Source of the DNA: a virus
Lineage: Duplodnaviria > Caudoviricetes
Direction: 5' to 3' (one strand)
Length of the DNA: 54,691 nucleotides
Virus record (IMG/VR): IMGVR_UViG_3300020044_007012
Span: 1-54,691 of that record
Each line of letters begins with the position of its first letter. Positions within the stretch are counted from its first letter, which is position 1. Shown one piece after another: positions 2,941 to 16,040 of this stretch. The notes below the pieces were generated by a model that had not been told where the DNA came from, made no database searches, and saw nothing but the letters and a program-made list of their open reading frames with translations. The translations under genes and the position numbers were made by a program.

Positions 2941-2943
2941 TTT

Positions 2944-3252
2944 TTAATCCACAACGAACAGGAACCGTTGCCCGTCCTCAGAAACAATGAACTGCGTGCC
3001 GTCCTGCGTGATCAGGCCCGAAGGGTTGGTGGTCACAGGCACATCCGGACGCACAAACGGCAGCACGATCTGGTCCTCTTTGCGTGGGGCCAGTCGATAA
3101 GGGTCGTAGTCGTCCGTGTCCTCGTCGCACACCATGAGCGCCGGGTAATTGGGATCCGGGTGCAGATCGGCCAGCACAAACTTGCGCGAGCAGCGCGCGC
3201 AAATGCCAAGCCCGTAGGTTGATTCGCCGGAGGGGTCAATGAAGCGCGGCAT
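2944..3252 (-). CDS. Hypothetical virion-associated protein with CxxC (102 aa)
   Basis: Tightly packed in the operon; GICARCS motif. Confidence 0.7.
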   Translation of the reverse strand: MPRFIDPSGESTYGLGICARCSRKFVLADLHPDPNYPALMVCDEDTDDYDPYRLAPRKEDQIVLPFVRPDVPVTTNPSGLITQDGTQFIVSEDGQRFLFVVD

Positions 3253-3255
3253 GGC

Positions 3256-4248
3256 TTACCTCGTGTAGCAACCGATGCCGGGATTAATGTACGTCGGCGA
3301 GCCGTCGTTGTCGCCGTCCCACGCGGCCTGACGCGCCACAATCCATTTCTGGTCAAGCGCAGGAATCAGAGCAGCCTCCACTTGAGGTGTCTCTGCGGCA
3401 ACGCGAGCGGCCAATCCAGAAACGATGGCCTCAAGCCAGCGCTGAGGCACCTCAACGTCTTGGCGCAGGTTTTCCGTGTCCATGATGTGGCGGTGACGCC
3501 AGACGATCAGCTGCTGGTGCTCAGCGGCAAGATTCGGGCTTGGCCACAGGTTCATCACCGGGCGGGGCAGGTCGCGCTGGAACCAGTAGGTCAGCGGTCG
3601 GCCCAAGAACACCTTGTTGCTCTGCGCCACGTAGGTGTCGCGGTTCAATGGGCCCATGGGGATTTCCTGCGGCAGCGTGCCCAGGTAAACCTCTTCGAGA
3701 AGCATTGGGGCAGTGCTGGTGATGCGAAAAAACTCGCGAGCGCGAGCAGGGACAATATCGGTCCAGGTCCACTCGCCAGCCGCCGCAGCCGTTGTCTGCG
3801 TGCCGACCGGGGCCCAAATGATGCCGTCGGTCGATGTCTCAAATGTCAGGTCAACCGCCGCACCAAGCCACTTCATGCCCACCGTGTTGACCGTGCCCAC
3901 GCCACCGTCCTGGTCTGTGAAGTCCACCGTGTAGCTGGTGGGCAGCGACACCGTGGCTCCGGTCAGCTCCTGCAGCGTGCGCAGGTTGGCGTTCAAAACC
4001 TCAACGGTGCCGTTGGTCAGCGTGACGATGGGCTGACCCTCGTAAAACGGGTAAATCTGGCGCTCAATGCACCAGCTTGGGGTCTTGGTGTTGGCCAGCT
4101 CGCTGAGCAGCAAATACAGGGCCTCGAGTGCATAAGACTGCATCTCAGACGTGATGGCTTGGGCTGGCAAGCGGCAACGACGAAATGCGGTGTCGACCAC
4201 CTTAAGTGCGTTGAATGTCGTGTTGCTGATGCTGCCGGAAAAGGCCAT
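3256..4248 (-). CDS. Putative head-tail adaptor / tail tubular A-like protein (330 aa)
   Basis: N-terminal helical AFRRC..ALEALYLLLSELAN and C-terminal GRP..YW...LWPSP...VPQRWLEAIVSGLA pattern; position downstream of the capsid genes. Confidence 0.55.
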   Translation of the reverse strand: MAFSGSISNTTFNALKVVDTAFRRCRLPAQAITSEMQSYALEALYLLLSELANTKTPSWCIERQIYPFYEGQPIVTLTNGTVEVLNANLRTLQELTGATVSLPTSYTVDFTDQDGGVGTVNTVGMKWLGAAVDLTFETSTDGIIWAPVGTQTTAAAAGEWTWTDIVPARAREFFRITSTAPMLLEEVYLGTLPQEIPMGPLNRDTYVAQSNKVFLGRPLTYWFQRDLPRPVMNLWPSPNLAAEHQQLIVWRHRHIMDTENLRQDVEVPQRWLEAIVSGLAARVAAETPQVEAALIPALDQKWIVARQAAWDGDNDGSPTYINPGIGCYTR

Positions 4249-5413: not shown

Positions 5414-5553
5414 TTCTTGCTCCCTTTAGGCTTGGTGGCAGCCTTGGGCTTATCGTCGGCGGGTGTCTTTGCGTCGTCAGCTGCGGGCTGTTCGACCGGG
5501 ACACCACGCTCGGCGAGCTCTTCGGCTGAGGCGGGGGTGAATTTGATACCCAT
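5410..5553 (-). CDS. Hypothetical protein (47 aa, MGIKFTPAS...)
   Basis: ATG at 5553 with CAGGAG SD. Confidence 0.6.
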   Translation of the reverse strand: MGIKFTPASAEELAERGVPVEQPAADDAKTPADDKPKAATKPKGSKK

Positions 5554-5567
5554 GCGACGCTCCTGAA

Positions 5568-5810
5568 TCAGGCTGCGGCAATAGTGGTGCCAGCGGGAGA
5601 GATCCAGTTTGTGCCGTTGCTCACCGCAATGCACGGCGCACCGGCCAGGCCGTTGCTCACGTAGATCGTAGTGCCGGTCAAGCCGGTAGCGGCAGGAGCG
5701 CTGGCCACAGTGTAGGCGGGCAGCTGAACCGCGCCAATGACGTCACCCGTCACGTCGCCCACGAAGCCGTTGGTGGAAGTAACTGGACCGGAGAAGGTAG
5801 TAGAAGCCAT
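5568..5810 (-). CDS. Putative head decoration/fibre protein (80 aa, MASTTFSGPV...)
   Basis: Directly downstream of the major capsid gene; GAGGA SD. Confidence 0.6.
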   Translation of the reverse strand: MASTTFSGPVTSTNGFVGDVTGDVIGAVQLPAYTVASAPAATGLTGTTIYVSNGLAGAPCIAVSNGTNWISPAGTTIAAA

Positions 5811-5900
5811 GATGATTTCCTCACATGCGAGTTATGCGCAGCCGTCTGCATGTCGTCGGCCTGGGCGGGCCGTCTGCTGCGCGAAAAAAGGTGCCCAACA

Positions 5901-5927
5901 AAACCCCCGCCACAAGGGCAGGGGTTT
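5901..5927 (-). terminator. Rho-independent terminator after the major capsid gene
   Basis: Minus-strand hairpin aaacccctgcc-cttgt-ggcgggggttt followed by a T-rich tract. Confidence 0.65.
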
Positions 5928-5938
5928 CAGTTGGCATC

Positions 5939-6853
5939 TTAGACGCCAGCGGTACCGAACACGCCGCGTGGGTCAGTCCAGCCCAGAACGTAACGCTCTG
6001 TGGCCTTGTAACGCATGCTGTCGGTTTCGAAGTCGCCTTCCATGGATTTCTCCAGGCCGCGACGCATCAACAGTTTCAGACCTTCGGGGGCGTCGGTCTG
6101 AATCCACCAGGCTGTGGTGGAGGTGATACGCGAGAGGTTGGCTTGGCCATCGGCCAGCAAGCCCATCGACTTCACAGGGTTGATGTCGTTGTCAGCGGTG
6201 CCTGTACGCAGCACAGACTTCAGCAAAACCTCAGCCTGGAACACGTTGGAAGGACCGGAGACGATCTTCTTGGGTGTCAAGCGAATACGCTTACCGTTGT
6301 TGTCAACAGCGTTGCGGATCTGGATGAGCATCTGCTCCAAGGAGGTCTGCGACAAGGCAGCGGCTGTGGCCAGCTGGTTGCTGAATGTGCCGTTGACGAT
6401 GGGGTGAGCCGTAGAAACCAAGGCCACGCCGTCACCACCGGTGTACGCGCCGTTGAAGGCACGGTTCAGGATGTTGGCTGCCAGAGTCTCTTTGGTCTCG
6501 ATCAGAGACTGCGCCAGGTGCTTGGCGTAGGTCTGACCGATACGGATGTGGTCGCCGTCTTCAACCAAAACTTTGGTCAAAGCGAAGGCCAAGCCGTACA
6601 CCTTGTAGAGGTAGCGCTGCAGGAACAGGACGCCACCGGATTGGTAGGTCACTGCCATGCCGTCAGGCAGCTCAGGCGCAGCACCGAAGCCGTACAAGAC
6701 GGGCTCTTCGTGGTAGTTGCGTGGGATGCCTTTTTGCTCGCGGAACACTTGTTTCCACTCGTCAGCACGTTGCTCATAAACGCCGTCGAACACTTCGTTC
6801 AAGATCGGCTCGACTACGGAACGGAAGTCCGTACTACGCATTGGGGTTGCCAT
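5939..6853 (-). CDS. Major capsid protein (304 aa)
   Basis: Size, position after scaffold and decoration genes, and motifs GFGAAP, DGVAL.S.AHP and EGDFET..MRYKA.ERY..GW.DPRG. Confidence 0.88.
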   Translation of the reverse strand: MATPMRSTDFRSVVEPILNEVFDGVYEQRADEWKQVFREQKGIPRNYHEEPVLYGFGAAPELPDGMAVTYQSGGVLFLQRYLYKVYGLAFALTKVLVEDGDHIRIGQTYAKHLAQSLIETKETLAANILNRAFNGAYTGGDGVALVSTAHPIVNGTFSNQLATAAALSQTSLEQMLIQIRNAVDNNGKRIRLTPKKIVSGPSNVFQAEVLLKSVLRTGTADNDINPVKSMGLLADGQANLSRITSTTAWWIQTDAPEGLKLLMRRGLEKSMEGDFETDSMRYKATERYVLGWTDPRGVFGTAGV

Positions 6854-6866
6854 GGTTCAGCCCTCC

Positions 6867-7466
6867 TTAGATGCTGTTGACGGCTGCTTTGTAGGCGTGT
6901 TCGTTGATGCGAACAGTGGCCGTGACATAAGCGTCAGTCAGCGAGTCGTTGATGTTGTATCCGAAGCCGGTGATCTGGAACTGGCCAGATGTGGTTTGGA
7001 TGGCGGTGAGTTGTGTGTTGGACAGGCCCGTCTGGGTGCTGCCGCCAGGGGAGGCAACAGTCCAGTCGCACTCTTCGCCCACTGCGGTTTGCACCGTGGT
7101 GGAGCCAGGAGTACCTGGGTTGGTGTACTGAACGTCAAACAGCGTTTCTGGATCGTCGTACACCCAAGCCACGATGTTGGTAGCCGTGACGCCGGAGGGC
7201 CAGAAGGGGCTGATGGTGGGGCGGCCAGTGGCATCGTTGTACTGGCAACCGGCGAAGATACCCAGGAGGGTGATGCCGTCGGTGGTGCCAGAACGGGTGC
7301 CGTCAGAGGTGCCCAGTTGAATAACGCCAGCGTCAGTCAACTTCACGGGGTCACCCGAGAAGATGTTGGCGGCGTAGGTGCTTGCTACGGTGTAGGCCTT
7401 CGGACGCATCTGACCACTGTTGTGGTAAGAGGCGCGAAAGCCAAAAGGTGCGCTTGTCGAGGACAT
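6867..7466 (-). CDS. Capsid-associated/decoration protein (199 aa)
   Basis: APFGFR...IF.GD.V...GIF.GC.Y...DDP motif set typical of the gene just upstream of this MCP type. Confidence 0.65.
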   Translation of the reverse strand: MSSTSAPFGFRASYHNSGQMRPKAYTVASTYAANIFSGDPVKLTDAGVIQLGTSDGTRSGTTDGITLLGIFAGCQYNDATGRPTISPFWPSGVTATNIVAWVYDDPETLFDVQYTNPGTPGSTTVQTAVGEECDWTVASPGGSTQTGLSNTQLTAIQTTSGQFQITGFGYNINDSLTDAYVTATVRINEHAYKAAVNSI

Positions 7467-7503
7467 AGTGCGGACTCCTTGTGGGTTGAATGGACTGAAC
7501 TGT

Positions 7504-8034
7504 TCAGGTCAGCTCGAACTGAGCGGACCGTCTTTGTCCAATTTCCGTCATGCCATCACCCGCATCCATACGCGAGCCAGAGGCGCGCGCTTGCTGCTCC
7601 ATGAACTCCGCCGTGTCGGTCAGCTTTTCCTCTTCGCGCAACGGCGCGTCGTGGTGAGCTTCCTGCATGTACTTCTCGTACAGGCTGATCGGGAGTTTGA
7701 AAGCGAGCATCTCATTGACGCCGATGAAGCCTTGCCAGTCGCCCGTTTTCACGGTGACATAGTCCCAGCCAGGCACATCGCTTGGCTTCAAAGGCTCATA
7801 ACCCAGACGCATACGCATGTGGATGGAGTCACGAGGGTTCGAGGTGGTCAGCCAGCAGCAATGCCAGCCGTCGAGTTTTGGCAAGTCCGGAAGTGAGGAC
7901 TGGTGGAACTGCTGTCGGAACATTTCAACCCGCTCATCATCGGACAGGGCACGTGATTCGGATACGGCGCGATCTACCATTGCGCGGTTGTCACGGTTGT
8001 CACCAGCGGATTTCTTTAAGCGTTCGTCAGACAT
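7504..8034 (-). CDS. Head-operon hypothetical protein (176 aa)
   Basis: Strong SD; between scaffold and capsid genes. Confidence 0.75.
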   Translation of the reverse strand: MSDERLKKSAGDNRDNRAMVDRAVSESRALSDDERVEMFRQQFHQSSLPDLPKLDGWHCCWLTTSNPRDSIHMRMRLGYEPLKPSDVPGWDYVTVKTGDWQGFIGVNEMLAFKLPISLYEKYMQEAHHDAPLREEEKLTDTAEFMEQQARASGSRMDAGDGMTEIGQRRSAQFELT

Positions 8035-8099
8035 GTCTCGCTCCTTTCAGCGATTGGGAAAAATTATAGGTCGAATTTGGAAAAACACAACGCGATTTT

Positions 8100-9080
8100 T
8101 TACGCGCGGTTGTTGCGGTCATATTCCGCGTAGCGTTTTACGTATTTTGTGCGCAGGACAGGATCGTCCCAAACACCAGCGTCAATCAAGGCCTGCTTGC
8201 GCTCAGGGCTTACATAAACCTCGGTCCGGGTGCTGGTCGGCGCGTGCTCGCGGCCGGAGCCGATTGCTGGGCCGCCGCGTTGTTGGCGCGGAGCTTGCTG
8301 CGACTGCTGGCGTGGGCTGGCCTGTGGCTTGCGGGACTCACCAAATCGCTCGGGCAGACGGCGCGCAGCTCGGTCGCGCAGCTCGTCCCAGTACTCCTCG
8401 GTGTCGGGCTTGAAGCCCTCGCGCACCAAAGCGCCGTCGATGGCCAAAACGATTGCGCTGTCCTCGTCCTTGCCTTGCATGTCATACCAGGGGTTGTCCT
8501 GAATGAACTCCTTGGCGTAGTGCATGGTCATGTCGTCCATGCCTTCGGATTGCTTGGCTGGACGCTGCTGGGCAGCTTGCTGCTTTGCAAACGCCAACTG
8601 TTGCGCTTTTTGCAAGGCTTGGTCGCGGTAGCGCATGGCCTGCGTGACGTCCTCGCCGTTGCCAGCGGCCACAGCCTTGGCGATCACTCGCTCTGCCATC
8701 TCCGCTTCGTTTTTCGCTTGGCTGATCTGCACATCGATCTGCGAGAGGTCGGCTTGGTGCGTGCGCTGCTCCACGGTACCCAGGCGGCGCTCAAGATCGT
8801 CATTGCGCTTGCGCAGGAAGCTCAGCTCCAGCTTGTCGCGGCTGATGGCTTCGTCGCGGCGCTTTTTGCGATCGAGTTTTTCCAGGCGGCGGCGCTCACG
8901 GATTGCCTCGCGCTCGGCATCTGTGCCGTCGCCTTGGTTGCCTTCGTCGTCGTTGCCAGACAGGCGTGCGTCGCCGTCGTCGTCGTTTTCGTCTTGGTTT
9001 TGGTTACCGTTTGGCTGGTCCTCAACGATGACGATTTCTTCGTTGTCGGGCTTGCCGTCGTCTTCGGTCATGAGTGGCAT
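8100..9080 (-). CDS. Putative scaffolding protein (326 aa)
   Basis: Acidic N-terminus, long coiled coil, basic C-terminal helix; position between portal and capsid. Confidence 0.7.
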   Translation of the reverse strand: MPLMTEDDGKPDNEEIVIVEDQPNGNQNQDENDDDGDARLSGNDDEGNQGDGTDAEREAIRERRRLEKLDRKKRRDEAISRDKLELSFLRKRNDDLERRLGTVEQRTHQADLSQIDVQISQAKNEAEMAERVIAKAVAAGNGEDVTQAMRYRDQALQKAQQLAFAKQQAAQQRPAKQSEGMDDMTMHYAKEFIQDNPWYDMQGKDEDSAIVLAIDGALVREGFKPDTEEYWDELRDRAARRLPERFGESRKPQASPRQQSQQAPRQQRGGPAIGSGREHAPTSTRTEVYVSPERKQALIDAGVWDDPVLRTKYVKRYAEYDRNNRA

Positions 9081-9108
9081 GGTCTGCTCCTTTCAGCAGG
9101 GTGGTGGG

Positions 9109-9390
9109 TTAAACGGAGGGATGCTCGCTGAGCTTGCTGCGCAGCTCGTAGCCCATCAAAGGCCAAAGCTCGTGCTTCGCGTTCTCAATGGCAACGCTCT
9201 CGCCGGTGGCGGGAACGTCGTTCAGAGGTGACACGGATGCCGAAGGACGTCCGGTAACCGCAAAACCGTTGCGCGTTGTCAGAACGGCCCAGCGCAGAAC
9301 TTGGCCAGACTTGGAGACGTGCTTGACGATTTCAGTGTGAATAATGTTGGCTTCCAAATCGGCAGGGGTGACGCGTGGTTCAGTGCTCAT
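9109..9390 (-). CDS. N4 Gp49/Sf6 gp66-family protein, Acb4-like nucleotide-signal sponge (93 aa)
   Basis: PRVT..DLEANI, NGFAVTG..SASVSP.N...GESVA.ENA...LWPLMGYEL motifs; ATGA overlap with the upstream gene. Confidence 0.75.
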   Translation of the reverse strand: MSTEPRVTPADLEANIIHTEIVKHVSKSGQVLRWAVLTTRNGFAVTGRPSASVSPLNDVPATGESVAIENAKHELWPLMGYELRSKLSEHPSV

Positions 9391-9875
9391 GATTGAATGC
9401 TCCAGTCCTCGGCCAGCACGTCGTTGACACTGGGTACCCAAGTGCTCACGGTGTTGTCCACGTTTTTGATCGCCATGTAGGCGTTGTATGGGACCATTGC
9501 GCCTTCGCCGAAGTGGCTCTTGGCCGCGCCGGTTTGCACAGGGTAACTGTTGGCGGGGACGTAGTAGACAAACATGCCCTTGCCATTCCAGCCAGCGCGG
9601 GCGACCTTTTGGCCTGCCTTCAGCGCCTCAATGGCTTGGCCAAAGGTCATGCCGTTGCACTTGCGGTAGGCTCGGTCGAACACTTCGGCTGGCGACCAGC
9701 TCAAGTAACCGGCGTAGTGGTCCGTGTTGCCCTTGCCGCCATCCAAGTACTCGACCAGGTAGCCTGCGTCCTCGGGGTTCTCGTCGGCAGGGACAGTCCA
9801 GACACGGAAGGCGTTGTACTCAGCCCGGGTCATGGGCTTGGCGTTGATCAGTTTGGTTCCGATGTAACGTTCCAT
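9387..9875 (-). CDS. DUF2829/Tad2-like sponge fused to an uncharacterised N-terminal domain (162 aa)
   Basis: C-terminal MTFGQAIEALKAGQKVARAGWNGKGMF...WVPSVNDVLAEDW is the DUF2829 signature; ATG at 9875 with GGAGGAG SD. Confidence 0.8.
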   Translation of the reverse strand: MERYIGTKLINAKPMTRAEYNAFRVWTVPADENPEDAGYLVEYLDGGKGNTDHYAGYLSWSPAEVFDRAYRKCNGMTFGQAIEALKAGQKVARAGWNGKGMFVYYVPANSYPVQTGAAKSHFGEGAMVPYNAYMAIKNVDNTVSTWVPSVNDVLAEDWSIQS

Positions 9876-9876
9876 G

Positions 9877-10116
9877 TCAGCTCCTCCAGGTGATTGCTTT
9901 GACAGCCCACATCTGGGCAGTCTGAGCTTCGGTGATGGCGACGCTGGCCATGCGCTTGATTTCGGCGTTTTCCGCCTTTGCGCGCAACAGATCCATGCGG
10001 TCGATGACGGCGGCAAACTCGCGTTTGCAGGCGTCCACATCCGGGTTGTTGCCTGGGTTGAACGTCAGGCCGACGGCCCTCTCGCCGAACGACAGATCGC
10101 GTGTTTCTTCGCTCAT
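9877..10116 (-). CDS. Acb2/Tad1-like helical-hairpin protein, putative sponge (79 aa)
   Basis: C-terminal KRMASVAITEAQTAQMWAVKAIT resembles the Acb2/Tad1 hairpin pattern R..AIA.T..Q...M....A. Confidence 0.65.
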   Translation of the reverse strand: MSEETRDLSFGERAVGLTFNPGNNPDVDACKREFAAVIDRMDLLRAKAENAEIKRMASVAITEAQTAQMWAVKAITWRS

Positions 10117-10126
10117 AACACCCCCG

Positions 10127-10525
10127 TCAGATGAATGCACGGATGGCCAGCGGGTCGCCGGTCACCTGGCCGATGATGTCCAGATCGTTGAAGATCACGA
10201 ACAAAGCGGACTCGCCGTTGGACAGCGAAACTTCCCAGCGATCGCCGCCGTACTTGGGCACGCGAACGTAATCACCAGGTGTGCACCAGCTGCCCTCGGG
10301 CCACGGGTCCATGGTGTTTCGATTCTTGAAGGCGAGGGCACCAACGGAGACGACCCGGGCAACTTGGGTGTTCCACTTTTCAGTGTCCCGTGAGCCGTTG
10401 TCGATGATGATGCCGGAGGCGGTTTTAGTCCGAGGGGTGCGGATTTGCACCAGGACACGGCTTCCAAACGGGGTGATGCCGGGGTCGGCGGTGGGGAACG
10501 CTTCAGCAAACGCGTCTGAGGTCAT
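10127..10525 (-). CDS. groES: Phage co-chaperonin GroES/Cpn10-like protein (132 aa)
   Basis: P.G.RVLV...KTASGII mobile loop, VVSVG, GDYV..PKYGG, ND.DIIG motifs. Confidence 0.85.
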   Translation of the reverse strand: MTSDAFAEAFPTADPGITPFGSRVLVQIRTPRTKTASGIIIDNGSRDTEKWNTQVARVVSVGALAFKNRNTMDPWPEGSWCTPGDYVRVPKYGGDRWEVSLSNGESALFVIFNDLDIIGQVTGDPLAIRAFI

Positions 10526-10632
10526 CTTCTGCTCCTTTCAGCAGGTGTTGTCGGCCGCCACAACGGCTGCCGTCCAATCGGGTCGGTGGCCACAACGGCC
10601 ACCTTCAAAAAATCAGCACAGACCAGTGCAAA

Positions 10633-10830
10633 TCACAGGTCTCGGTCGCCGTGTCGCTCGTCGTCCAGAAGGTCAAGCAGGGCTCTGATGGCAGCTTCGT
10701 ATCCAGCAACCATGCCCACTCGGTATCCGTACTCGAAAGCGTCACGCTCGACCGGGCGCTTGAGGGCTTCAAGCGCAAAGACCTGCTGGTCAGCTTTGAG
10801 CTTTCCGAGCAGGCGATCTTCGATGGCCAT
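10633..10830 (-). CDS. Hypothetical protein (65 aa)
   Basis: In operon downstream of the portal. Confidence 0.7.
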   Translation of the reverse strand: MAIEDRLLGKLKADQQVFALEALKRPVERDAFEYGYRVGMVAGYEAAIRALLDLLDDERHGDRDL

Positions 10831-10968
10831 TTAGCAGGGCGTCTTAGGCATCGAGGGGGCAGCCGGAGTCGTCTGGCCGGTGACGGGCTGGCCAGCGGCC
10901 ATGCGGTGGTGTTGAGGTACCAGGGCCGAATTCAAAGGCACGGTGCTTGATTTGGGTTTGTCGTTCAT
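10831..10968 (-). CDS. Small hypothetical protein (45 aa, MNDKPKSSTVPLNSALVPQHHRMAAG...), not in the ORF track
   Basis: AAGGAG SD; fills the gap exactly between the portal and the next gene. Confidence 0.6.
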   Translation of the reverse strand: MNDKPKSSTVPLNSALVPQHHRMAAGQPVTGQTTPAAPSMPKTPC

Positions 10969-10987
10969 GGGAGGCTCCTTGTGAAAA

Positions 10988-13513
10988 TTAACGTGTGCCG
11001 GGGTTGATGCCGGTGCCGGTGCTTACGGCGACTTTCTCGCCGGAGGCAATCTCTGCCGCTGCCAGGCGCATGGCTGTGGCGTTGTCGTCCGAGTTCATCT
11101 GCAGGCGAGCTGAGATTTCGGCCTCTGTGCGTTGGCTCTCGGCCATCTGGCGAAGCTGCTCGCGCTGCATGTCCTCCGCGCGCGACTGCTGCTTGTCTGC
11201 CAGTCCAGCGGCGTCGGTCTGTGCCTTCTGCACGGCTTTTTGCTGCTCCAGTTGCAGGCGCTGCTGGTCGGTCTGAGCGCGCTGCTGCAGGGCCAGTTGC
11301 TGCACCTGCGCATTGAGCTGCGCAATCTGCATGCTGTTGTCCTGCGGCATCTGGGGCGGCTGGGGTGCAAACTGCTGCGCCATCTCGTCGATCTTGGCCA
11401 ACTCCTGCGCAAACTGCGCCAGCTGCTGCTCGATGATCTGTTGCACGCGCACGATGACCTGGACCTGCTGGCCAGCATCGTCCGTGATCAAGCCCTCGGA
11501 CTCGGCACGCTGCACGGCCTCGTGGGCTTGCGTCAGGTAGAAGTTGAGCAGGTGATCGCGCAGGTGCAACGCCATCGGGTACAAATAGCTTTTGACGATC
11601 GACGGGTTCATGCCAAATATCGGCGACTTCAAGAACGCCAAGTGCGTCTGGATGTGCGCCACGTGGTCCTGCTTGGGAAGCACATAGACCGGGCGGCCCA
11701 TCGATGCGGCCACGTTCTCGCTGACCGGATCGACGTCGTCTTGGCCAGGCTGAGGCTGCAACACATCTTCTGGGTTGAGCTTCAGGTTGCGCAGGAACAT
11801 CTCCTCGACCTTGCGCATGTCGTACATCTGAGGCAGTGTGGCAGCGCGGGACTGCACGGCTTGCACCTGGGCAAAGCGCTGAGCCTCGCTGAAAATGGCC
11901 GGGTCGGACACAGGCACAACGTCCAGCGGACCGTCAAAGTCCTCGGGCTTCACATCCAGGCCGTTTTCCATGGCCTCGATGTCTTCTTCCGTCAGGTACG
12001 CGCTGTTGATTCGGTGCAGGATGCCAAACACGCGGGCCATGCTGCTGTGCAAGCGCGAGTGGATGGAGCTGAAAACCACCATGCCCTGCTCGATGAGCGC
12101 CAGGGTCGTGCCAACCGGGGCGTTGGGGTTTTGGTCGGACAGCTTCTCAAACGAGGTCTGCACCACACCCTTGCCAGCGTCAACCAGGAAGCCAAGCAAA
12201 GAGAACAGCGTGGGGCTTGGGCCGTTAAACGGCAGGGCCATGGCCAGCTTGCGAATGTCGTCGACCAGCGCGCCGCCCTCGATCTCGACCACCTCGGTCG
12301 GCTGCACGTTGATCGTCTGGCCGCCAGGGCCGCCCTTGAGTTTCAAGAGCGTCGGGATGTTTTGGATGTGCGCCGAGTCCAGCAACGCACGCAGCGCGCC
12401 AGTGGCCGCGCCTGACAAGCCGCCGATCATGTGGGTCAGGCCAATCGGGTACGCGCCGCGCCAAGGCACGAACGGGAACTCGACAATCCAGTCCAGCTCC
12501 TTGCGGCGCTTGTCCTCTAGATCCCAGTTGCGGTACAGCGAGAGCGCTTTGCGCGTGGACTTGTCGATGCTGATGATGTACGGCTCCACGCCGTCACCAA
12601 AGTCCAGGTGGGTGTAAATCTCGAAGATGGTCCGCAGGCCGTCCTCGTTGTAGCTGGTGTCCTCGCGGCCCTCGATCTTGTCGTTGGCAATCGTGGCCTT
12701 GCTGAATTCGATCTGATCGGGCGAGCCAATGTCCACCTCGGTGTACATGCCAGCCTTCATGCGGCGGTTGAACTCAAACTTGGTCACGTACTGCACGTGC
12801 GTCTTACGCTCGGCAGAGTAGAAGTTGGTGGCCGCAAACGGCAGGTAAATGTCGTCGATCGCGATGAACTCGGCCATGGGGCGACGCCACTGGGGCGACC
12901 ACATGAGCTTGAGGTACTGACCGCCGCCCAGGGGCAGTTGCGTGGACAGCTGCTCCAGCTCGCCACGGAACTCGGGCATTTGCTGGGTGGTCTGCCAGTT
13001 CATGAACTCCGACTTGCGGCGGGCTTTGTCCAGCTTCTCTGGATCCGCCGCGCCCTGAATCTTGGACTTGACCGGGCCTGAAGGCGGAAACGCCTCTTTC
13101 ATGAATCGGGCGCTGAAATCGACGCAGGCCTCGACCAGCATCGGGTGCACGACTTTGTTGGCTCCGGAGAACTGAGCGCCGCCAGGGGCATCGTCGCCAA
13201 GGCCCGTGCGGCGCAAGCCCTCTTCATAGAGCTTGTCGCGCTTGGATCGGGCTTCCTTGTCGCGCTCGATCTTGTCGAGCAGGTCAACGACCGCGTCGCT
13301 GAGCATGCTGCGATCGACCTCGTCGACGATGTTGGCAAAGTGGGCCTTCTTGTCGGCCACATCGCGGTCGTTCTTCATCCGGACGACAGCGCCGCCGTCT
13401 TCGGTGTCCTCAACGTCCATCTCGTCGTCGTTGGGCATGGAGACGGTTTCGCCTCGCTGCTCATCGTCGCTTGGGTTCTCGTCTTCGCCGTCGTTCAGGA
13501 GTTGGTCAGCCAT
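10988..13513 (-). CDS. Portal protein with long Gln-rich C-terminal coiled-coil barrel (841 aa)
   Basis: HPML.EA...F, G.A.GALR.LLDS, NAPVGTTLALIE.G..V.S.IH.RLH motifs; P22-like C-terminal barrel; downstream of terminase. Confidence 0.88.
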   Translation of the reverse strand: MADQLLNDGEDENPSDDEQRGETVSMPNDDEMDVEDTEDGGAVVRMKNDRDVADKKAHFANIVDEVDRSMLSDAVVDLLDKIERDKEARSKRDKLYEEGLRRTGLGDDAPGGAQFSGANKVVHPMLVEACVDFSARFMKEAFPPSGPVKSKIQGAADPEKLDKARRKSEFMNWQTTQQMPEFRGELEQLSTQLPLGGGQYLKLMWSPQWRRPMAEFIAIDDIYLPFAATNFYSAERKTHVQYVTKFEFNRRMKAGMYTEVDIGSPDQIEFSKATIANDKIEGREDTSYNEDGLRTIFEIYTHLDFGDGVEPYIISIDKSTRKALSLYRNWDLEDKRRKELDWIVEFPFVPWRGAYPIGLTHMIGGLSGAATGALRALLDSAHIQNIPTLLKLKGGPGGQTINVQPTEVVEIEGGALVDDIRKLAMALPFNGPSPTLFSLLGFLVDAGKGVVQTSFEKLSDQNPNAPVGTTLALIEQGMVVFSSIHSRLHSSMARVFGILHRINSAYLTEEDIEAMENGLDVKPEDFDGPLDVVPVSDPAIFSEAQRFAQVQAVQSRAATLPQMYDMRKVEEMFLRNLKLNPEDVLQPQPGQDDVDPVSENVAASMGRPVYVLPKQDHVAHIQTHLAFLKSPIFGMNPSIVKSYLYPMALHLRDHLLNFYLTQAHEAVQRAESEGLITDDAGQQVQVIVRVQQIIEQQLAQFAQELAKIDEMAQQFAPQPPQMPQDNSMQIAQLNAQVQQLALQQRAQTDQQRLQLEQQKAVQKAQTDAAGLADKQQSRAEDMQREQLRQMAESQRTEAEISARLQMNSDDNATAMRLAAAEIASGEKVAVSTGTGINPGTR

Positions 13514-13517
13514 GTGT

Positions 13518-16040
13518 TCAGCCCGCGTTCATTGCGTGGAGCTCGTCCACGATGGACCCGATTCTAGCCGGGTCAAAGTCGCCTGTGTGGAAATTCGCAT
13601 CGGACACCAGGCCGCCGGATGCGAAGCCCTCGGGTGGCGTCTCGCCAAGGAATTTAAGCAGCTCGTCCTTGGTCATGAAACGCTGCGCGTCTGGCATAGC
13701 TTCGGCTGCGGCGTTGAACTTGTCCATGCCAATACCCATGTCTTTGCCGTAGATGTCCTGCAGCGCCTTCATCAGAGGTCCAGCTTGCGACACGTCAATC
13801 AACCCCGTATTGCCCAAGTCCCCCACCTTTCCAAAGTTCCCCGACCGTACAAAGTCTTGCACGGCTGGCAAATACTCTTCTTTGGGCGCGCGGTTGGCTT
13901 TGCCTTTGATCTGGACGATGTCTTGGGCTGGCTCGATCCCCTTGTTGCGAATAAACATGTCGAAACCAGCGCCGACGTCAGACATGTTGTTGCCGCCAAT
14001 TTCATCAAACTCTTGCCACAGCTTTGCTGCCTGCTCCTTGCCGACGGCAGCAGTGACGTCATCCCAAGTTTTAAGTGGGCGAGGCGCAACCTCAATCGTC
14101 ACGTGCGGCTGCCCCTTCTTGTCGCGTAGGCTGTAGATCTTTGACCGACCCTCGACCACGTCCGGGCAGTAACCCCCGACGCAGTGGCCCATGGTTTCGC
14201 CTTCGTACTTGAGGGCGTCTTCGAGGGCTTTGTAGGACTCGTCAATGTCAACGGTTTTTTTGCGGTTGAAGTCGGTCATCATGTCGCGCACAAAATTGTT
14301 GAACTCTGGCGTGCCTTCATCAAAGCCTTCGTCGAAGGCCATGTCCTCGGCCACTTCGCGCATTTGCCTTTGATCCATATCGGGAGGCAAATCCATCTCT
14401 GATTTCTCGACGCTGATTTTTTTACCAGTCTCTTTGGGCTGGCGCAGCTCCACCCACTTGAAGCCCTGCTCCGGGTACTCTTTGACTACCTGCGTGGCTG
14501 GGTTCATCGCCCGCGCCATGTCGGCCTCGGCCTTCTGCGCGGCGCGCCAGTCGTTGATCTTGGCCACGCGCTCAACGGCCTGAGGCACGGTGACCTTTTC
14601 GAGGTCGGAGTACTTGAGCATCAGCTCGCGGGGCAGGCCCGACTCGGGGTTGATGGCGTTGCGCAGCTCGTCAACCAGGTGGCCGAAGCCCAAGCCGATG
14701 TTGCCCTCGGAGCCACTGAGCATTTCGTAGACGGGCGTTTCCGGCGGAACCTTAAGCAGCCACGGGTTGGCCTCGACGGCCTCGGGGTAGTAGCCGCTGG
14801 TCATGTCGGAGGCGCGCAGAGGGTTGACGAAGGTGTCGGCCCGGGCCTCCCAGGTTTTGGCCAGGTCGGAGACGCCCATGCCTTCCTCGGGGAAACCACC
14901 CTCCCTGCGTGCGCGGCTCACGTTGTATCCGGTCGGCGTGATTTCACTGTGCATGATGCCCCGCTCGGCCAGCGCCCGCAGCGGGTCTTCCGGCGTGGCC
15001 ATCTCGTTTTTGATGTACTTCGCCAGCTTGGTTTCGAGCCAACGGTTGATCGCAACGTTTGGCAGGTTGCTTGCATGCAGCGCTTGAGCCTCTTCAAGGG
15101 GCACGCCGATCGCAGCAGCAAGGTCTCGTGGATCAGTCATGCCAAAACGATCTCTTGCCTTCATCGGCTCGATCTCCCTCTCCACCGACCCCGCCAGCCA
15201 GTTGCCGCCCTTGGGCTTGACCACGTTGACGGCAGGCTGACCTGCGGCCATGGCGAAATCCGTCCCGGCGCGTCGCACGGCCGACGGCAGCGCAGCGATG
15301 GCGCGCAGCGGGGAGCCCGGGCCGGTGTAAAAACCGCCGCCAAGCGTGCCCAGCTCGGTTGCAGCGCGGCCCACCGGTGTCGACTCCAAGGAGCGCCCAG
15401 GCAAACGGCCGCGCACGTCTTCGCTGGTCGGCAGCACGGTCTGCTCATTCAAGCCGGGCAGCATACGGATCAACGACTCAATGTCGCCGGGAGCACCAAG
15501 CACGCCGGACACCGCGCCACGCAACGCAGCCAGCGGAGCGTCGGCAGAGGCCCGGCGGTCTTGCTGGGACTCAGGGCGGCGACCAGCGGAGCGGTAGCCA
15601 ATGAACGGGCGGTTCAACTCATCTGCGCTGACCTCGCCACCTTTAGCCTTGCTGATCCATGGGCGACCTTCGGTGCGACTCATCGCGGCGCGCTCGGCTG
15701 CCTGCTGCACAAGGTCTTCAAGCTCCTGTTGCGTTCTTGCACGCTTGGCCATCTCAATCCCCAGCGCGTTGTTGTGCATGTCTTGCTGGTAATCCGGTGG
15801 CATCTCGCCACGGCCAAGCATCATCATCAAAGCACGCATCGGGGATGTGGAGTACTCGTGCGCCTTACCCGCCAGGTCGGCAACCTTTGGTCCGTACTTG
15901 CGAGCCATGGTGCCAGCGGCCAGCATGTGGCGCGCCGCGTCCTGCCGATCATCTTGACCAACTTGGCCCGGGTACATCTCGCGAGCAACGCTGGCCGAAT
16001 ACGGCGACACGGAAAAAATTGATGGGGTGTCTTTAGGCAT
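13518..16040 (-). CDS. Large multidomain (polyvalent-type) protein: N-terminal DAxRH/HE/DxxNN domain and C-terminal PcfJ-like domain (840 aa)
   Basis: DAARHM...HE...DMHNNALG; YEGETMGHCVGGY...IYSLRD..GQPHVTIEV...IVQIKGKANRAP. Confidence 0.65.
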   Translation of the reverse strand: MPKDTPSIFSVSPYSASVAREMYPGQVGQDDRQDAARHMLAAGTMARKYGPKVADLAGKAHEYSTSPMRALMMMLGRGEMPPDYQQDMHNNALGIEMAKRARTQQELEDLVQQAAERAAMSRTEGRPWISKAKGGEVSADELNRPFIGYRSAGRRPESQQDRRASADAPLAALRGAVSGVLGAPGDIESLIRMLPGLNEQTVLPTSEDVRGRLPGRSLESTPVGRAATELGTLGGGFYTGPGSPLRAIAALPSAVRRAGTDFAMAAGQPAVNVVKPKGGNWLAGSVEREIEPMKARDRFGMTDPRDLAAAIGVPLEEAQALHASNLPNVAINRWLETKLAKYIKNEMATPEDPLRALAERGIMHSEITPTGYNVSRARREGGFPEEGMGVSDLAKTWEARADTFVNPLRASDMTSGYYPEAVEANPWLLKVPPETPVYEMLSGSEGNIGLGFGHLVDELRNAINPESGLPRELMLKYSDLEKVTVPQAVERVAKINDWRAAQKAEADMARAMNPATQVVKEYPEQGFKWVELRQPKETGKKISVEKSEMDLPPDMDQRQMREVAEDMAFDEGFDEGTPEFNNFVRDMMTDFNRKKTVDIDESYKALEDALKYEGETMGHCVGGYCPDVVEGRSKIYSLRDKKGQPHVTIEVAPRPLKTWDDVTAAVGKEQAAKLWQEFDEIGGNNMSDVGAGFDMFIRNKGIEPAQDIVQIKGKANRAPKEEYLPAVQDFVRSGNFGKVGDLGNTGLIDVSQAGPLMKALQDIYGKDMGIGMDKFNAAAEAMPDAQRFMTKDELLKFLGETPPEGFASGGLVSDANFHTGDFDPARIGSIVDELHAMNAG

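What the first reader, a model, noticed from the sequence alone, without database searches (positions are those of the whole stretch)
9109..10116. Triple immune-signal sponge cassette (Acb2/Tad1-like + Tad2/DUF2829 + Acb4/Gp49-like) embedded in the capsid operon
Seen in sequence: three small tandem genes (9877-10116, 9387-9875, 9109-9390), separated by a 1-nt gap and an ATGA overlap, sit between groES and the scaffold. They carry motifs of an Acb2/Tad1-type helical hairpin, DUF2829, and the N4 Gp49/Sf6 gp66 family. Established knowledge, from recall: Acb2, Tad1, Tad2 (DUF2829) and Acb4 (Gp49-family) are phage sponge proteins that sequester CBASS cyclic oligonucleotides and Thoeris gcADPR-type signals. 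Inference: this is a compact multi-signal anti-defence module spanning three unrelated folds. It would be co-expressed with the late head proteins, which are known triggers of signalling immunity, rather than in the early region.
Basis: partly seen in the sequence, partly recalled or inferred. Interest (0 to 1): 0.9.

Follow-up and report, generated by a model that had tools for sequence, protein, structure and literature searches.

The report
Three-gene immune-signal sponge islet in phage head operon
A complete 54.7-kb phage genome carries three adjacent small genes from known families of proteins that soak up bacterial alarm nucleotides, inserted at a variable spot inside its head-assembly operon; the families are known, the location and one extra domain are the less ordinary parts.

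Summary
Three minus-strand genes (9877-10116, 9387-9875, 9109-9390) are packed with a 1-nt gap and an ATGA overlap between a GroES-like gene and the putative scaffold gene. Each passes its Pfam cut-off: Acb2_Tad1_hairpin 37.1 bits, Tad2-like 93.7 bits, Gp49/Sf6-gp66 51 bits. The last family is Acb4. Each family occurs once in the genome.

The middle protein is the best supported. Its C-terminal domain is 56-58% identical to the solved ModTad2.

That domain has no Pfam match. It is fused mainly to sponge domains. It aligns with the N-terminal dimerisation domain of the published RyR Tad sponge and is predicted to dimerise.

The site is a hot spot. Relatives carry nothing there, gene 1 alone, gene 1 plus a RyR-domain gene, or the same trio with a swapped Acb4 core.

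Best reading: an anti-signalling sponge islet, probably transcribed with the late head genes. No ligand binding was tested. It is a new member of a known kind, of moderate interest.

The parts
10127..10525 (-). GroES-like co-chaperonin gene; conserved upstream flank of the hot spot
   Evidence: PF00166 Cpn10, 37.3 bits. Collinear with relatives L007, L047, L063 and Caulobacter phage RW.
9877..10116 (-). Gene 1 (P1), 79 aa: Acb2/Tad1-hairpin family protein, putative nucleotide-signal sponge
   Evidence: PF24729, 37.1 bits against a cut-off of 27. AF2 model pLDDT 92.1: a short helix plus two long antiparallel helices. 2587 of 2589 candidates are relatives at E<=0.001. Of 53 longer close homologues, one each also carries Sequestin, RyR or Tad2.
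9654..9875 (-). Gene 2 (P2), residues 1-74: N-terminal domain without a Pfam family; small beta-rich domain, predicted homodimerisation module
   Evidence: No Pfam or NCBIfam match. 1522 cluster representatives at E<=0.001. Of the best 150: Tad2-like 43, Sequestin/PF21825 39, Acb4/PF13876 18, Acb2_Tad1 hairpin 2. 36% identity over 69 aligned positions to the N-terminal domain of RyR Tad gp68, E 8e-6. Dimer prediction ipSAE 0.73 against a best control of 0.02.
9387..9653 (-). Gene 2 (P2), residues 75-162 plus stop: Tad2 (DUF2829) sponge domain of the ModTad2 type
   Evidence: PF11195, 93.7 bits. phmmer against PDB: 9eib_A E 2.8e-30, 8v3e_E E 3.3e-30. Foldseek 9eib_B E 9.7e-11, 56% identity. VIA-align 9eib_A Z 11.5, rmsd 3.7, 86 aligned, 58% identity.
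9109..9390 (-). Gene 3 (P3), 93 aa: Gp49/Sf6-gp66 = Acb4 family protein, putative cyclic-dinucleotide sponge; lacks the Cys-rich C-terminal tail of many close homologues
   Evidence: PF13876, 51 bits, profile positions 1-82 of 82. Subfamily profile against phage N4 gp48 (PF13876, 119.5 bits): hhalign probability 96.4%, E 1.1e-9. Weak profile match to SPO1 Acb4 9e4w_A, E 0.56. Tail visible in alignment A2.
9081..9108 (-). 28-nt spacer with AAAGGAG before the next gene; downstream boundary of the variable segment
   Evidence: Sequence read. Similarity to L007, L047 and L063 resumes at window positions 9091, 9084 and 9063.
8100..9080 (-). Putative scaffolding protein gene; conserved downstream flank
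   Evidence: No family above cut-off. 66-78% identical in relatives and directly follows GroES in Caulobacter phage RW and MW202545.

Best explanation
The three genes form a small anti-defence islet of nucleotide-signal sponges. It sits in a gene-acquisition hot spot between the GroES-like gene and the putative scaffold gene of a complete, terminally redundant 54.7-kb phage genome.

Shown here: membership of three families whose characterised members sequester bacterial immune signals, and the variable content of the site in relatives.
- P1 belongs to the Acb2/Tad1 hairpin family.
- P2 is a two-domain protein: an N-terminal dimerising module followed by a Tad2 domain closest to ModTad2.
- P3 belongs to the Acb4 family.

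Inferred: each protein oligomerises and binds second messengers made by CBASS, Thoeris and possibly Pycsar, so that the effectors are not activated.
- By likeness to published relatives, Acb4 members bind cyclic dinucleotides.
- Acb2 members bind cyclic di- and trinucleotides or 3'cADPR.
- The actual ligands of these three proteins are unknown.

Also inferred: the genes are translationally coupled and transcribed with the portal-to-capsid late operon. Sponge production would then coincide with synthesis of head proteins, which published work implicates as triggers of signalling immunity.
For: Family membership: (three Pfam matches above cut-off), with each family present once and all three adjacent.

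P2 Tad2 domain:
- 9eib_A E 2.8e-30 by sequence.
- Foldseek E 9.7e-11.
- VIA Z 11.5 with 58% identity, far above the next unrelated row at Z 5.5.
- 44% identity over the full length to phage N4 gp49 in RefSeq numbering, E 5e-46.

P3: hhalign probability 96.4% to N4 gp48. The Acb4 paper equates PF13876 with Acb4 and reports that 8 of 8 purified homologues bound 3'3'-cGAMP.

P1:
- All of the best 120 relatives carry PF24729.
- Of 53 longer close homologues, 1 also carries PF21825 (Sequestin), 1 PF02026 (RyR) and 1 PF11195 (Tad2).
- One source names a homologue 'Acb2/Tad1 domain-containing protein'.

Hot spot:
- Caulobacter phage RW and MW202545 have the GroES gene followed directly by the scaffold gene.
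- L047 has P1 only. L063, L065 and L069 have P1 plus a RyR-domain gene (PF02026, 41.4 bits). L007 has P1, P2 and a P3 with a replaced core.
- The breakpoints fall exactly at the P1 stop and just upstream of the scaffold start.
- The RyR domain is a published gcADPR sponge.
- RW has none of the three families anywhere. MW202545 carries an Acb4 gene next to a Tad2-domain gene elsewhere in its genome.

Precedent: frequent Tad2-Acb4 fusions, and a hot spot of anti-signalling genes in N4-like phages. N4 itself has Acb4 and N-domain-Tad2 genes side by side.

Operon: SD-like sequences, a 1-nt gap and an ATGA overlap. There are 0 sigma-70-like sites in 5500-14500, against 1.8 expected, and a terminator-like hairpin right after the capsid gene.
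Against: - No binding or defence-rescue data exist for these proteins.
- P1 found no solved Acb2 or Tad1 by sequence: the single-sequence and profile searches gave only chance-level rows.
- In fold comparison, Vs.4 (Z 6.0, rmsd 2.8, 57 aligned) and CbTad1 (Z 5.3) sit inside the background of unrelated helical hairpins, which reach Z 7.9.
- hhalign of the P1 profile to T4 Vs.4 gave only 23% probability over 21 columns.
- P1 homologues are unusually conserved for an anti-defence gene: 62-100% identity over 80 loci. Several of them lie in head modules.
- On a weak alignment to SPO1 Acb4, only the stacking phenylalanine (F48, aligned with F43 here) is kept. E49, V56, Y57, F62, N63, I66, T70 and K81 are not.
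- P3 scores much lower on PF13876 (51 bits) than the allele in L007 (112.6 bits) or N4 gp48 (119.5 bits).
- Characterised sponges are described as made early, or were engineered under early promoters. A late-operon position is atypical and its timing was not measured. The promoter scan covers only sigma-70-type sites.
Confidence: 0.75

Rival explanations
1. The small proteins, P1 above all, are accessory head-morphogenesis or virion proteins (chaperone, decoration or internal protein). Their position in the head operon reflects a structural role, and the likeness to sponge families is only a shared small fold.
For: - The genes are embedded between the portal/GroES genes and the scaffold/capsid genes and are tightly coupled.
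- P1 homologues also lie downstream of a portal gene in distant phages: L033, L041 and L044, whose portals are 32-33% identical to this one. In phage DSL-LC05 a P1 homologue lies between the terminase and portal genes.
- P1 is very conserved.
- The P1 fold is a generic helical hairpin.
- One record annotates the stretch matching the N-domain as 'putative decoration protein' (H63).
Against: - The closest isolated relatives build heads without any of the three genes. RW has no match to the three families in its whole genome.
- The content of the slot differs among phages whose portal is 89-91% and capsid protein 96-99% identical to this one.
- The first and second downstream neighbours of P1 homologues are heterogeneous. 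Of 129 ORFs scanned: RyR 4, Pam3_Gp34 3, AEP-TOTE 3, NinG 2, and Acb3, ERF and DNA_pol_A 1 each.
- The Tad2 and Acb4 memberships of P2 and P3 are strong.
Confidence: 0.07
2. P2 acts mainly as something other than a Thoeris, CBASS or Pycsar sponge, for example as an anti-CRISPR. The Tad2/DUF2829 fold includes AcrIIA7, and some records annotate homologues as anti-CRISPR proteins.
For: - PDB chains named 'Inhibitor of Type II CRISPR-Cas system' and AcrIIA7 match P2: 8kbi_A E 5.3e-16 and 9kzr_A E 7.3e-15, and 8kbi_A Z 10.9.
- Escherichia phages Louie and Huey annotate the matching gene as 'anti-CRISPR protein'.
Against: - The same AcrIIA7 entries are solved in complex with cADPR isomers and cGG, so they behave as sponges (entry titles).
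- P2 is much closer to ModTad2 (56-58% identity) than to AcrIIA7 (39-43%).
- The genomic company is other sponge families.
Confidence: 0.06
3. The islet is a recent passenger with little current function in this phage. P3 may be a decaying copy, since it has lost the C-terminal tail and scores low on the family model.
For: - P3 lacks the Cys-rich tail present in 6 of the 29 close homologues aligned with it and in the L007 allele.
- P3 scores 51 bits against 112.6 bits for the L007 allele.
Against: - All three frames are intact with good SD-like sites.
- Tail-less proteins of 92-95 residues with 73-82% identity are common among P3 relatives.
- The residues invariant in the subfamily are kept in P3, which is the reference row of A2.
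Confidence: 0.05

Closest known systems
ModTad2 / MoTad2 (Myroides odoratus prophage Tad2; PDB 9EIB, 8V3E)
   Same: The P2 C-terminal domain matches over its whole length at 56-58% identity, with only a two-residue gap. Published work reports a tetramer that binds His-ADPR and, in a separate pocket, cUMP/cCMP.
   Different: P2 has an extra 74-residue N-terminal domain that the solved ModTad2 chains (86-89 residues) lack. Pocket residues could not be checked one by one, because the texts I read give no residue numbers. Ligands are untested.
Phage N4 gp48 (Acb4 family) and gp49 (N-domain + Tad2), RefSeq numbering, in the N4-like anti-signalling hot spot
   Same: The same two gene types sit side by side. 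P2 is 44% identical to N4 gp49 over the full length. The P3 subfamily profile matches N4 gp48 at 96.4% hhalign probability. Published work describes a hot spot in N4-like phages holding Tad2, Tad3, Acb4 and Sequestin, and states that N4 acb4 activates Panoptes.
   Different: The gene order is reversed: Acb4 comes first in N4. In N4-like phages the hot spot lies among replication genes next to the virion RNA polymerase gene. Here it lies inside the head operon of an unrelated phage lineage, and an Acb2/Tad1-hairpin gene is added.
SPO1 Acb4 (PDB 9E4W), founder of PF13876
   Same: Same Pfam family. The beta-strand core and following helix align, and the stacking phenylalanine is kept.
   Different: The profile match is weak (E 0.56), and most published pocket residues differ on that alignment. 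The paper itself reports differing specificities between homologues from Gram-positive and Gram-negative hosts.
Acb2 (T4 Vs.4, PaMx33 Acb2) and Tad1
   Same: Pfam hairpin domain above cut-off. P1 has two long antiparallel helices preceded by a short N-terminal element, and a length similar to Vs.4 (79 against 88 residues). The last helix shares a motif, A-x-T...A-x-M-W-A-x-[KR]-A.
   Different: There is no significant sequence or fold match to solved Acb2 or Tad1 beyond the helical background. The hexamer and pockets were not tested.
RyR Tad (Pectobacterium phage vB_PatP_CB1 gp68)
   Same: Its N-terminal domain aligns with the P2 N-domain: 36% identity over 69 aligned positions, E 8e-6. [quoted passage not shown] The N-domain here is predicted to dimerise through strand pairing of residues 1-13. 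A RyR-domain gene occupies the same slot in relatives L063, L065 and L069.
   Different: The C-terminal partner here is Tad2, not a RyR repeat. The RyR genes in L063, L065 and L069 have no N-domain match by tblastn.
Sequestin (PF21825) fusions and sponge-fusion logic (Tal et al. preprint)
   Same: The N-domain shows the same 'fused to known sponges' pattern that was used to discover Sequestin. Burkholderia phage CSP3 carries an N-domain-Sequestin fusion in its capsid operon.
   Different: There is no Sequestin domain in this genome. That scan gave no match anywhere, including the control genomes, so it is weak evidence.

Membership tests
Acb2/Tad1 hairpin family (PF24729) | Match to the family model above the curated cut-off | tested here: met
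   37.1 bits against a cut-off of 27, E 3.6e-9, residues 28-76. Also 36.4 bits in the six-frame scan.
Acb2/Tad1 hairpin family (PF24729) | Two long antiparallel helices as the core of the protomer | tested here: met
   AF2 model with pLDDT 92.1 has helices at 25-47 and 51-76 plus a short helix at 10-15. Published description of the Acb2 core.
Acb2/Tad1 hairpin family (PF24729) | Profile-level homology to a solved Acb2 or Tad1 (the criterion of Hadary et al.: HHpred probability above 0.9 to 7UQ2, 8H39 or 7UAW) | tested here: inconclusive
   hhalign of A1 against T4 Vs.4 gave 23.4% probability over 21 columns, but A1 is shallow (Neff 1.7) and the target was a single sequence. hmmsearch of A1 against PDB gave no Acb2 or Tad1. 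VIA gave Vs.4 Z 6.0 and CbTad1 Z 5.3, within the helical background. A full HHpred run was not available.
Acb2/Tad1 hairpin family (PF24729) | Hexameric assembly with ligand pockets at protomer interfaces | not testable with these tools
Tad2 (PF11195 / DUF2829) | Family model match and sequence homology to solved Tad2 proteins | tested here: met
   93.7 bits. 9eib_A E 2.8e-30, 8v3e_E E 3.3e-30, SPO1 Tad2 8sme_A E 9.4e-17.
Tad2 (PF11195 / DUF2829) | Tad2 fold | tested here: met
   AF2 pLDDT 93.2. 24 Foldseek matches at E<=0.001, all Tad2 or AcrIIA7 entries. VIA 9eib_A Z 11.5, rmsd 3.7, 86 aligned.
Tad2 (PF11195 / DUF2829) | Homotetramer that binds gcADPR, His-ADPR or cyclic nucleotides | not tested
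   No oligomer or ligand modelling was done for this domain. Binding needs biochemistry.
Acb4 (PF13876, N4 Gp49 / Sf6 gp66) | Family model match over the whole domain | tested here: met
   51 bits against a cut-off of 27, profile positions 1-82 of 82. The paper equates PF13876 with the Acb4 family.
Acb4 (PF13876, N4 Gp49 / Sf6 gp66) | Homology to a functionally implicated member | tested here: met
   hhalign of A2 against N4 gp48: 96.4%, E 1.1e-9, 36% identity over 59 columns. N4 acb4 is reported to activate Panoptes. Only E 0.56 to SPO1 Acb4 9e4w_A.
Acb4 (PF13876, N4 Gp49 / Sf6 gp66) | SPO1 Acb4 pocket residues (K36, F48, E49, V56, Y57, F62, N63, I66, T70, K81) | tested here: inconclusive
   On the weak alignment, only F48 is kept (F43 here). 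K36 lies outside the aligned stretch. The alignment is of low confidence, and the paper reports varied specificities within the family.
Acb4 (PF13876, N4 Gp49 / Sf6 gp66) | Tetrameric pinwheel assembly | not tested
N-terminal domain of RyR Tad gp68 (unnamed family; P2 residues 1-74) | Sequence similarity to the gp68 N-terminal domain | tested here: met
   BLASTP 36% identity over 69 aligned positions, E 8e-6 for the single comparison.
N-terminal domain of RyR Tad gp68 (unnamed family; P2 residues 1-74) | Dimerisation through exchange or pairing of the first beta-strand | tested here: met
   Prediction only. ipSAE 0.73 (three runs: 0.72-0.74) against a best control of 0.02. The mark was reached by 20 of 30 proteins solved as pairs of one chain and by 1 of 23 solved as single chains. 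Runs agree in at least 98% of contacts, and partner pLDDT is at least 89. The tightest contacts are residues 2-12 with 2-12. Published description.
Phage anti-defence island / hot spot | Variable accessory gene content between conserved flanking core genes in related phages | tested here: met
   Five states of the slot were seen. Breakpoints lie at window 9876/9868 and 9084/9063.

The most novel reading that the evidence does not exclude
The 74-residue N-terminal domain of P2 may be more than a dimerisation handle. It may be an unnamed sponge-type or signal-sensing module that phages combine with at least five sponge families (Tad2, Sequestin, Acb4, Acb2/Tad1 hairpin, RyR Tad) and also encode alone.

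It has 1522 cluster representatives and matches in 142 isolate phage records, among them N4 and crAss-like phages. It occurs as stand-alone viral proteins of about 70-95 residues. Several invariant charged or aromatic residues (K8, R24, W26, E42, Y43, N50, Y57) lie within the predicted dimer interface, which is where sponges form their pockets.

If it binds a signal not yet tested, P2 would be a double sponge and the islet would target four ligand classes. The one published test found no activity of the isolated domain against type I Thoeris only.
Probability: 0.3. Interest if true: 0.75.

Novelty: new member of a known kind. Interest (0 to 1): 0.5.

Why it matters
The result shows that the clustering of anti-signalling sponges described for N4-like phages and T4 also occurs in an unrelated lineage whose closest isolated relatives infect Caulobacter. 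Here the cluster lies inside the late head operon. The breakpoints are clean, and related phages carry alternative cargo in the slot: nothing, an Acb2-like gene alone, that gene plus a RyR-type gene, or that gene plus a Tad2 fusion and either of two Acb4 alleles.

This gives a natural series for testing two questions. Does late, capsid-coupled expression of sponges pay off against capsid-triggered signalling immunity? Which ligand does each allele cover?

The more useful lead is the N-terminal domain. It is abundant, unannotated in Pfam, and fused almost only to sponge domains. The same guilt-by-fusion logic led to the discovery of Sequestin.

Tried and rejected
- Sequence searches of P1 against solved structures, single and profile, gave only chance-level rows.
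- Foldseek with the P1 model gave 0 matches at E<=0.001 among 161 at E<=10. CbTad1 appeared at ranks 26 and 48.
- The VIA second look placed Vs.4 at rank 19 and CbTad1 at rank 41, among unrelated helical hairpins. Structure therefore neither confirms nor denies the Acb2/Tad1 link.
- hhalign of the P1 profile against T4 Vs.4 was weak.
- P3 alone found nothing in PDB.
- NCBIfam gave nothing for any of the 7 proteins tried.
- The N-domain profile found no solved relative by sequence. The only row was the Tad2 part, E 0.57.
- By fold, the best rows for residues 1-79 were DUF1653 3be3_B (Z 5.1, rmsd 2.8, 60 aligned) and Tudor/SH3-like domains of CarD and Mfd (Z 4.6-4.7). This is too weak to name a fold family, and the domain was not modelled alone.
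- I considered Lockin and TadIV-1 as identities for the N-domain and rejected both from their published descriptions. Lockin is a beta-rich hexamer not found in INPHARED phages. TadIV-1 is helical and reported from Straboviridae phages.
- The Atlas search gave only unnamed viral clusters at scores below 0.9, which count as leads only.
- I tested whether the trio is a conserved mobile unit. Of 80 IMG/VR loci with a P1 homologue, tblastn found P2 and P3 next to it only in L007. The unit is therefore not conserved, although the Tad2-fusion and Acb4 pair recurs in Acidovorax phage AP1, N4 and MW202545.
- In the neighbour scan my ORF rule missed L007's P2, because its longest frame starts far upstream. 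To stay under the size limit I gave only 54 of 72 second-downstream ORFs, dropping near-duplicate loci.
- The PF21825 scan of the genome matched nothing anywhere, controls included, so it says little.
- Supplementary tables of the sponge papers (lists of homologues) were not open to me. They may already list these proteins or the N-domain.
- Literature searches for a named family matching the N-domain found only the passing description in the RyR Tad preprint.
Full report
WHAT IS THERE

The window is a complete virus record of 54,691 bases with direct terminal repeats. Its G+C content is about 53-64%.

On the minus strand the gene order is:
- portal-like gene, 10988-13513
- two small ORFs
- GroES-like gene, 10127-10525 (PF00166, 37.3 bits)
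- the three genes of the finding
- a 326-residue acidic protein, 8100-9080, taken as the scaffold from position and composition only
- two conserved ORFs
- major capsid protein, 5939-6853 (PF25209, 44.8 bits)

A TGA stop, one base and then ATG separate genes 1 and 2. Genes 2 and 3 overlap in ATGA. Each start is preceded by a purine-rich Shine-Dalgarno-like run.

FAMILIES

Pfam places the three proteins above the curated cut-offs:
- P1 (79 aa): Acb2_Tad1_hairpin, PF24729, 37.1 bits.
- P2 (162 aa): Tad2-like, PF11195, 93.7 bits, residues 76-160.
- P3 (93 aa): Phage_gp49_66, PF13876, 51 bits over the whole model.

Six-frame scans find each family once in the genome. The only three sponge-family genes of this phage are therefore neighbours.

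The recalled link between the Gp49 family and Acb4 is in print. I read passages and sections 7 and 8 of bioRxiv 10.1101/2024.12.30.630793. They state that SPO1 Acb4 belongs to PF13876, forms a tetramer that binds four 3'3'-cGAMP molecules, and that eight of eight purified homologues bound 3'3'-cGAMP.

P2, THE BEST-SUPPORTED PART

The C-terminal domain matches solved Tad2 proteins by sequence: 9eib_A at E 2.8e-30, 8v3e_E at 3.3e-30 and SPO1 Tad2 at 9.4e-17.

An AF2 model built from a 29-row alignment (pLDDT 93.2) matches by fold. Foldseek gives 9eib_B at E 9.7e-11 and 56% identity, and all 24 matches at E<=0.001 are Tad2 or AcrIIA7 entries. VIA-align gives 9eib_A at Z 11.5, rmsd 3.7, 86 aligned, 58% identity, with the next unrelated row at Z 5.5.

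ModTad2 is reported to bind His-ADPR and, in a second pocket, cUMP/cCMP. I read section 4, parts 1-2, of bioRxiv 10.1101/2025.08.24.671296 and part 1 of 3 plus passages of the review PMC13712596. Residue-level pocket checks were not possible from the texts I could read.

THE N-TERMINAL DOMAIN OF P2

Residues 1-74 have no Pfam or NCBIfam family.

A full HMMER scan of 1.84 billion cluster representatives found 1522 at E<=0.001 and 811 at E<=1e-10. The domain occurs at the N-terminus, in the middle or at the C-terminus of proteins 93-354 residues long.

Pfam scans of the best 150 representatives gave these partner domains:
- Tad2-like: 43
- crAss001_48 (PF21825): 39
- Phage_gp49_66: 18
- Acb2_Tad1_hairpin: 2
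- AP2: 1
- HNH_3: 1
- no other family at E<=0.001

PF21825 is Sequestin, a verified 3'cADPR sponge. It was discovered precisely because it is fused to Tad2 and Acb4 (sections 5 and 7 of bioRxiv 10.1101/2025.07.12.664507).

The domain aligns with the N-terminal domain of RyR Tad gp68 of Pectobacterium phage vB_PatP_CB1: 36% identity over 69 aligned positions, E 8e-6. [quoted passage not shown] It forms a strand-swapped dimer and showed no activity of its own against type I Thoeris.

A two-copy prediction of P2 residues 1-74 passed. The ipSAE was 0.73 against a best control of 0.02. The mark was reached by 20 of 30 proteins solved as pairs of one chain and by 1 of 23 solved as single chains. Runs agreed in at least 98% of contacts, and partner pLDDT was at least 89. 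The tightest contacts pair residues 2-12 of one copy with 2-12 of the other. This supports, but does not show, a dimer of the published kind.

By fold the domain resembles small beta-barrel-like domains only weakly. The best rows were DUF1653 at Z 5.1 and CarD/Mfd Tudor-like domains at Z 4.6-4.7.

tblastn finds the domain in 142 isolate phage records, including N4 and crAss-like phages. Atlas neighbours are unnamed viral clusters of 67-93 residues; their scores below 0.9 make them leads only.

P3

The subfamily is large: 2019 of 2021 candidates at E<=0.001. It is distant from SPO1 Acb4, with a profile match to 9e4w_A at only E 0.56.

It is clearly related to phage N4 gp48, which itself scores 119.5 bits on PF13876. 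hhalign gives probability 96.4%, E 1.1e-9.

Of the published SPO1 pocket residues that fall in the aligned stretch, only the stacking phenylalanine is kept on that weak alignment. Ligand specificity is therefore open.

P1

The subfamily is large and strikingly conserved. 2587 of 2589 candidates are relatives at E<=0.001, and the best 120 are 69-100% identical and all carry PF24729.

The AF2 model (pLDDT 92.1) is a short helix plus a long helical hairpin.

Neither sequence nor fold searches of solved structures lift Acb2 or Tad1 above background. hhalign to T4 Vs.4 reaches only 23% probability over a shared motif in the last helix.

Support beyond Pfam comes from fusions. Of 53 longer close homologues, one also carries Sequestin, one RyR and one Tad2.

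Hadary et al. report 4,204 non-redundant Acb2 homologues. Most of the 46 they tested inhibited CBASS, and ten inhibited type I Thoeris. I could not see whether this subfamily is among them, because the supplements were closed.

THE SITE IS A HOT SPOT

The nearest isolates are Caulobacter phages RW, KcrB, RLK and GB2A, at 71.8% nucleotide identity over 43% of a 7.7-kb query.

The slot takes these states in relatives:
- RW and the metagenomic genome MW202545: the GroES gene is followed directly by the scaffold gene.
- L047: P1 only.
- L063, L065 and L069: P1 followed by a 150-residue RyR-domain protein (PF02026, 41.4 bits).
- L007 (portal 91%, capsid 98% identical): P1 (100%), P2 (96-100%) and a P3 that is only 40% identical but scores 112.6 bits on PF13876.

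These relatives come from the 80 best IMG/VR loci with a P1 homologue, kept from 494 confirmed among 510 pattern matches.

blastn places the breakpoints at the P1 stop (window 9876/9868) and just upstream of the scaffold start (9084/9063). It shows that only the core of P3 (about 9380-9165) was replaced between the window and L007.

RW has none of the three families anywhere. MW202545 has an Acb4 gene next to a Tad2-domain gene among non-structural genes. The pair also stands together in phage N4 (gp48-gp49, reversed order) and in Acidovorax phage AP1.

Downstream neighbours of P1 homologues elsewhere are heterogeneous. Of 129 ORFs: RyR 4, Pam3_Gp34 3, AEP-TOTE 3, NinG 2, Acb3 1 and gp49 1. 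The trio as such is therefore particular to this lineage.

HOW IT MOST LIKELY WORKS

Shown: family membership, domain architecture, tight gene packing and variable content of the slot.

Inferred:
- The three proteins assemble into oligomers and sequester nucleotide second messengers of CBASS, Thoeris and perhaps Pycsar.
- The N-domain adds a dimer interface, or a further binding site, to the Tad2 tetramer.
- The genes are transcribed with the head operon.

The operon inference rests on the scan of 5500-14500. It found no sigma-70-like site against 1.8 expected, and a terminator-like hairpin directly after the capsid gene. The scan covers only that promoter type.

Late expression would place the sponges in the cell together with head proteins. 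[quoted passage not shown] That capsid mutations let phages escape CBASS is my recollection, not a call.

Characterised sponges are described as early proteins, or were engineered under early promoters. The late-operon position is thus the main departure from what is known.

COMPARISON AND NOVELTY

The following are all published:
- Sponge fusions.
- A hot spot of anti-signalling genes in N4-like phages.
- Adjacent sponge genes in T4: vs.3 is TadIV-1 and vs.4 is Acb2.

The islet is therefore a new member of a known kind. It sits in a new lineage and an unusual place, and relatives give a natural allelic series.

The part not yet in print, as far as my searches show, is that the N-domain recurs across five sponge families. 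In print it is mentioned only in passing for RyR Tad.

VERDICT

Function is untested. Confidence is 0.75 that this is a working sponge islet. Interest is 0.5.

Noticed in passing
L007:5727-6191; L063:2845-3297; alignment A2 (P0122, P0140, P0142, P0172, P0207): The gene just upstream of the scaffold gene in relatives ends with the same Cys-rich tail (...FPLGKAC..GEG.CEACQ), whether its body is Acb4-like (L007) or RyR-like (L063). Several P3 homologues from other contigs carry it too. The window's P3 lacks it. It could be a recombination joint, a small metal-binding knuckle, or a tag with its own role.
   Followed up: partly
L004 (Burkholderia phage CSP3) 2075-3011: A Lessievirus carries three small genes between the portal/338-aa protein genes and the major capsid gene: a 98-aa ORF with no family, an N-domain-Sequestin (PF21825) fusion, and a CsrA homologue. 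This is a second case of a sponge gene inside a head operon.
   Followed up: partly
L089 (MW202545.1) 2432-3264: A relative that lacks the islet in its head operon carries an Acb4 gene (annotated 'sf6') overlapping the start of a 154-aa gene with a Tad2 domain. They lie among nuclease and other non-structural genes, in the same order as in phage N4.
   Followed up: partly
L091 (phage T4) 4801-5345: T4 vs.3 (published as TadIV-1) and vs.4 (published as Acb2) are adjacent and abut at one base. This is another tandem of two sponge families in a model phage.
   Followed up: no
window 5903-5919 (minus strand): A terminator-like hairpin followed by a T-run lies about 20 nt after the stop of the major capsid gene. 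It fits an operon end there. The number of terminator-like sites in the region equals chance expectation (10 found, 10.2 expected).
   Followed up: no
Escherichia phages Louie and Huey; Aeromonas phage JELG-KS1: Public records annotate homologues of P2 as 'anti-CRISPR protein'. One record annotates the stretch matching the N-domain as 'putative decoration protein'. Annotation of this family is inconsistent.
   Followed up: no
phrog_9467: One PHROG profile of 155 positions matches the P2 N-domain with its first half and P3 with its second half. N-domain-Acb4 fusions therefore form a phage protein family of their own. This agrees with the 18 of 150 representatives.
   Followed up: yes
L005 (Acidovorax phage AP1) 2048-3676: In AP1 the Tad2 fusion and the gp66/Acb4 gene are preceded by two small ORFs (101 and 129 aa) with no Pfam family. 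The group lies between the lysis genes and the integrase gene and may be a further anti-defence islet with unknown members.
   Followed up: no
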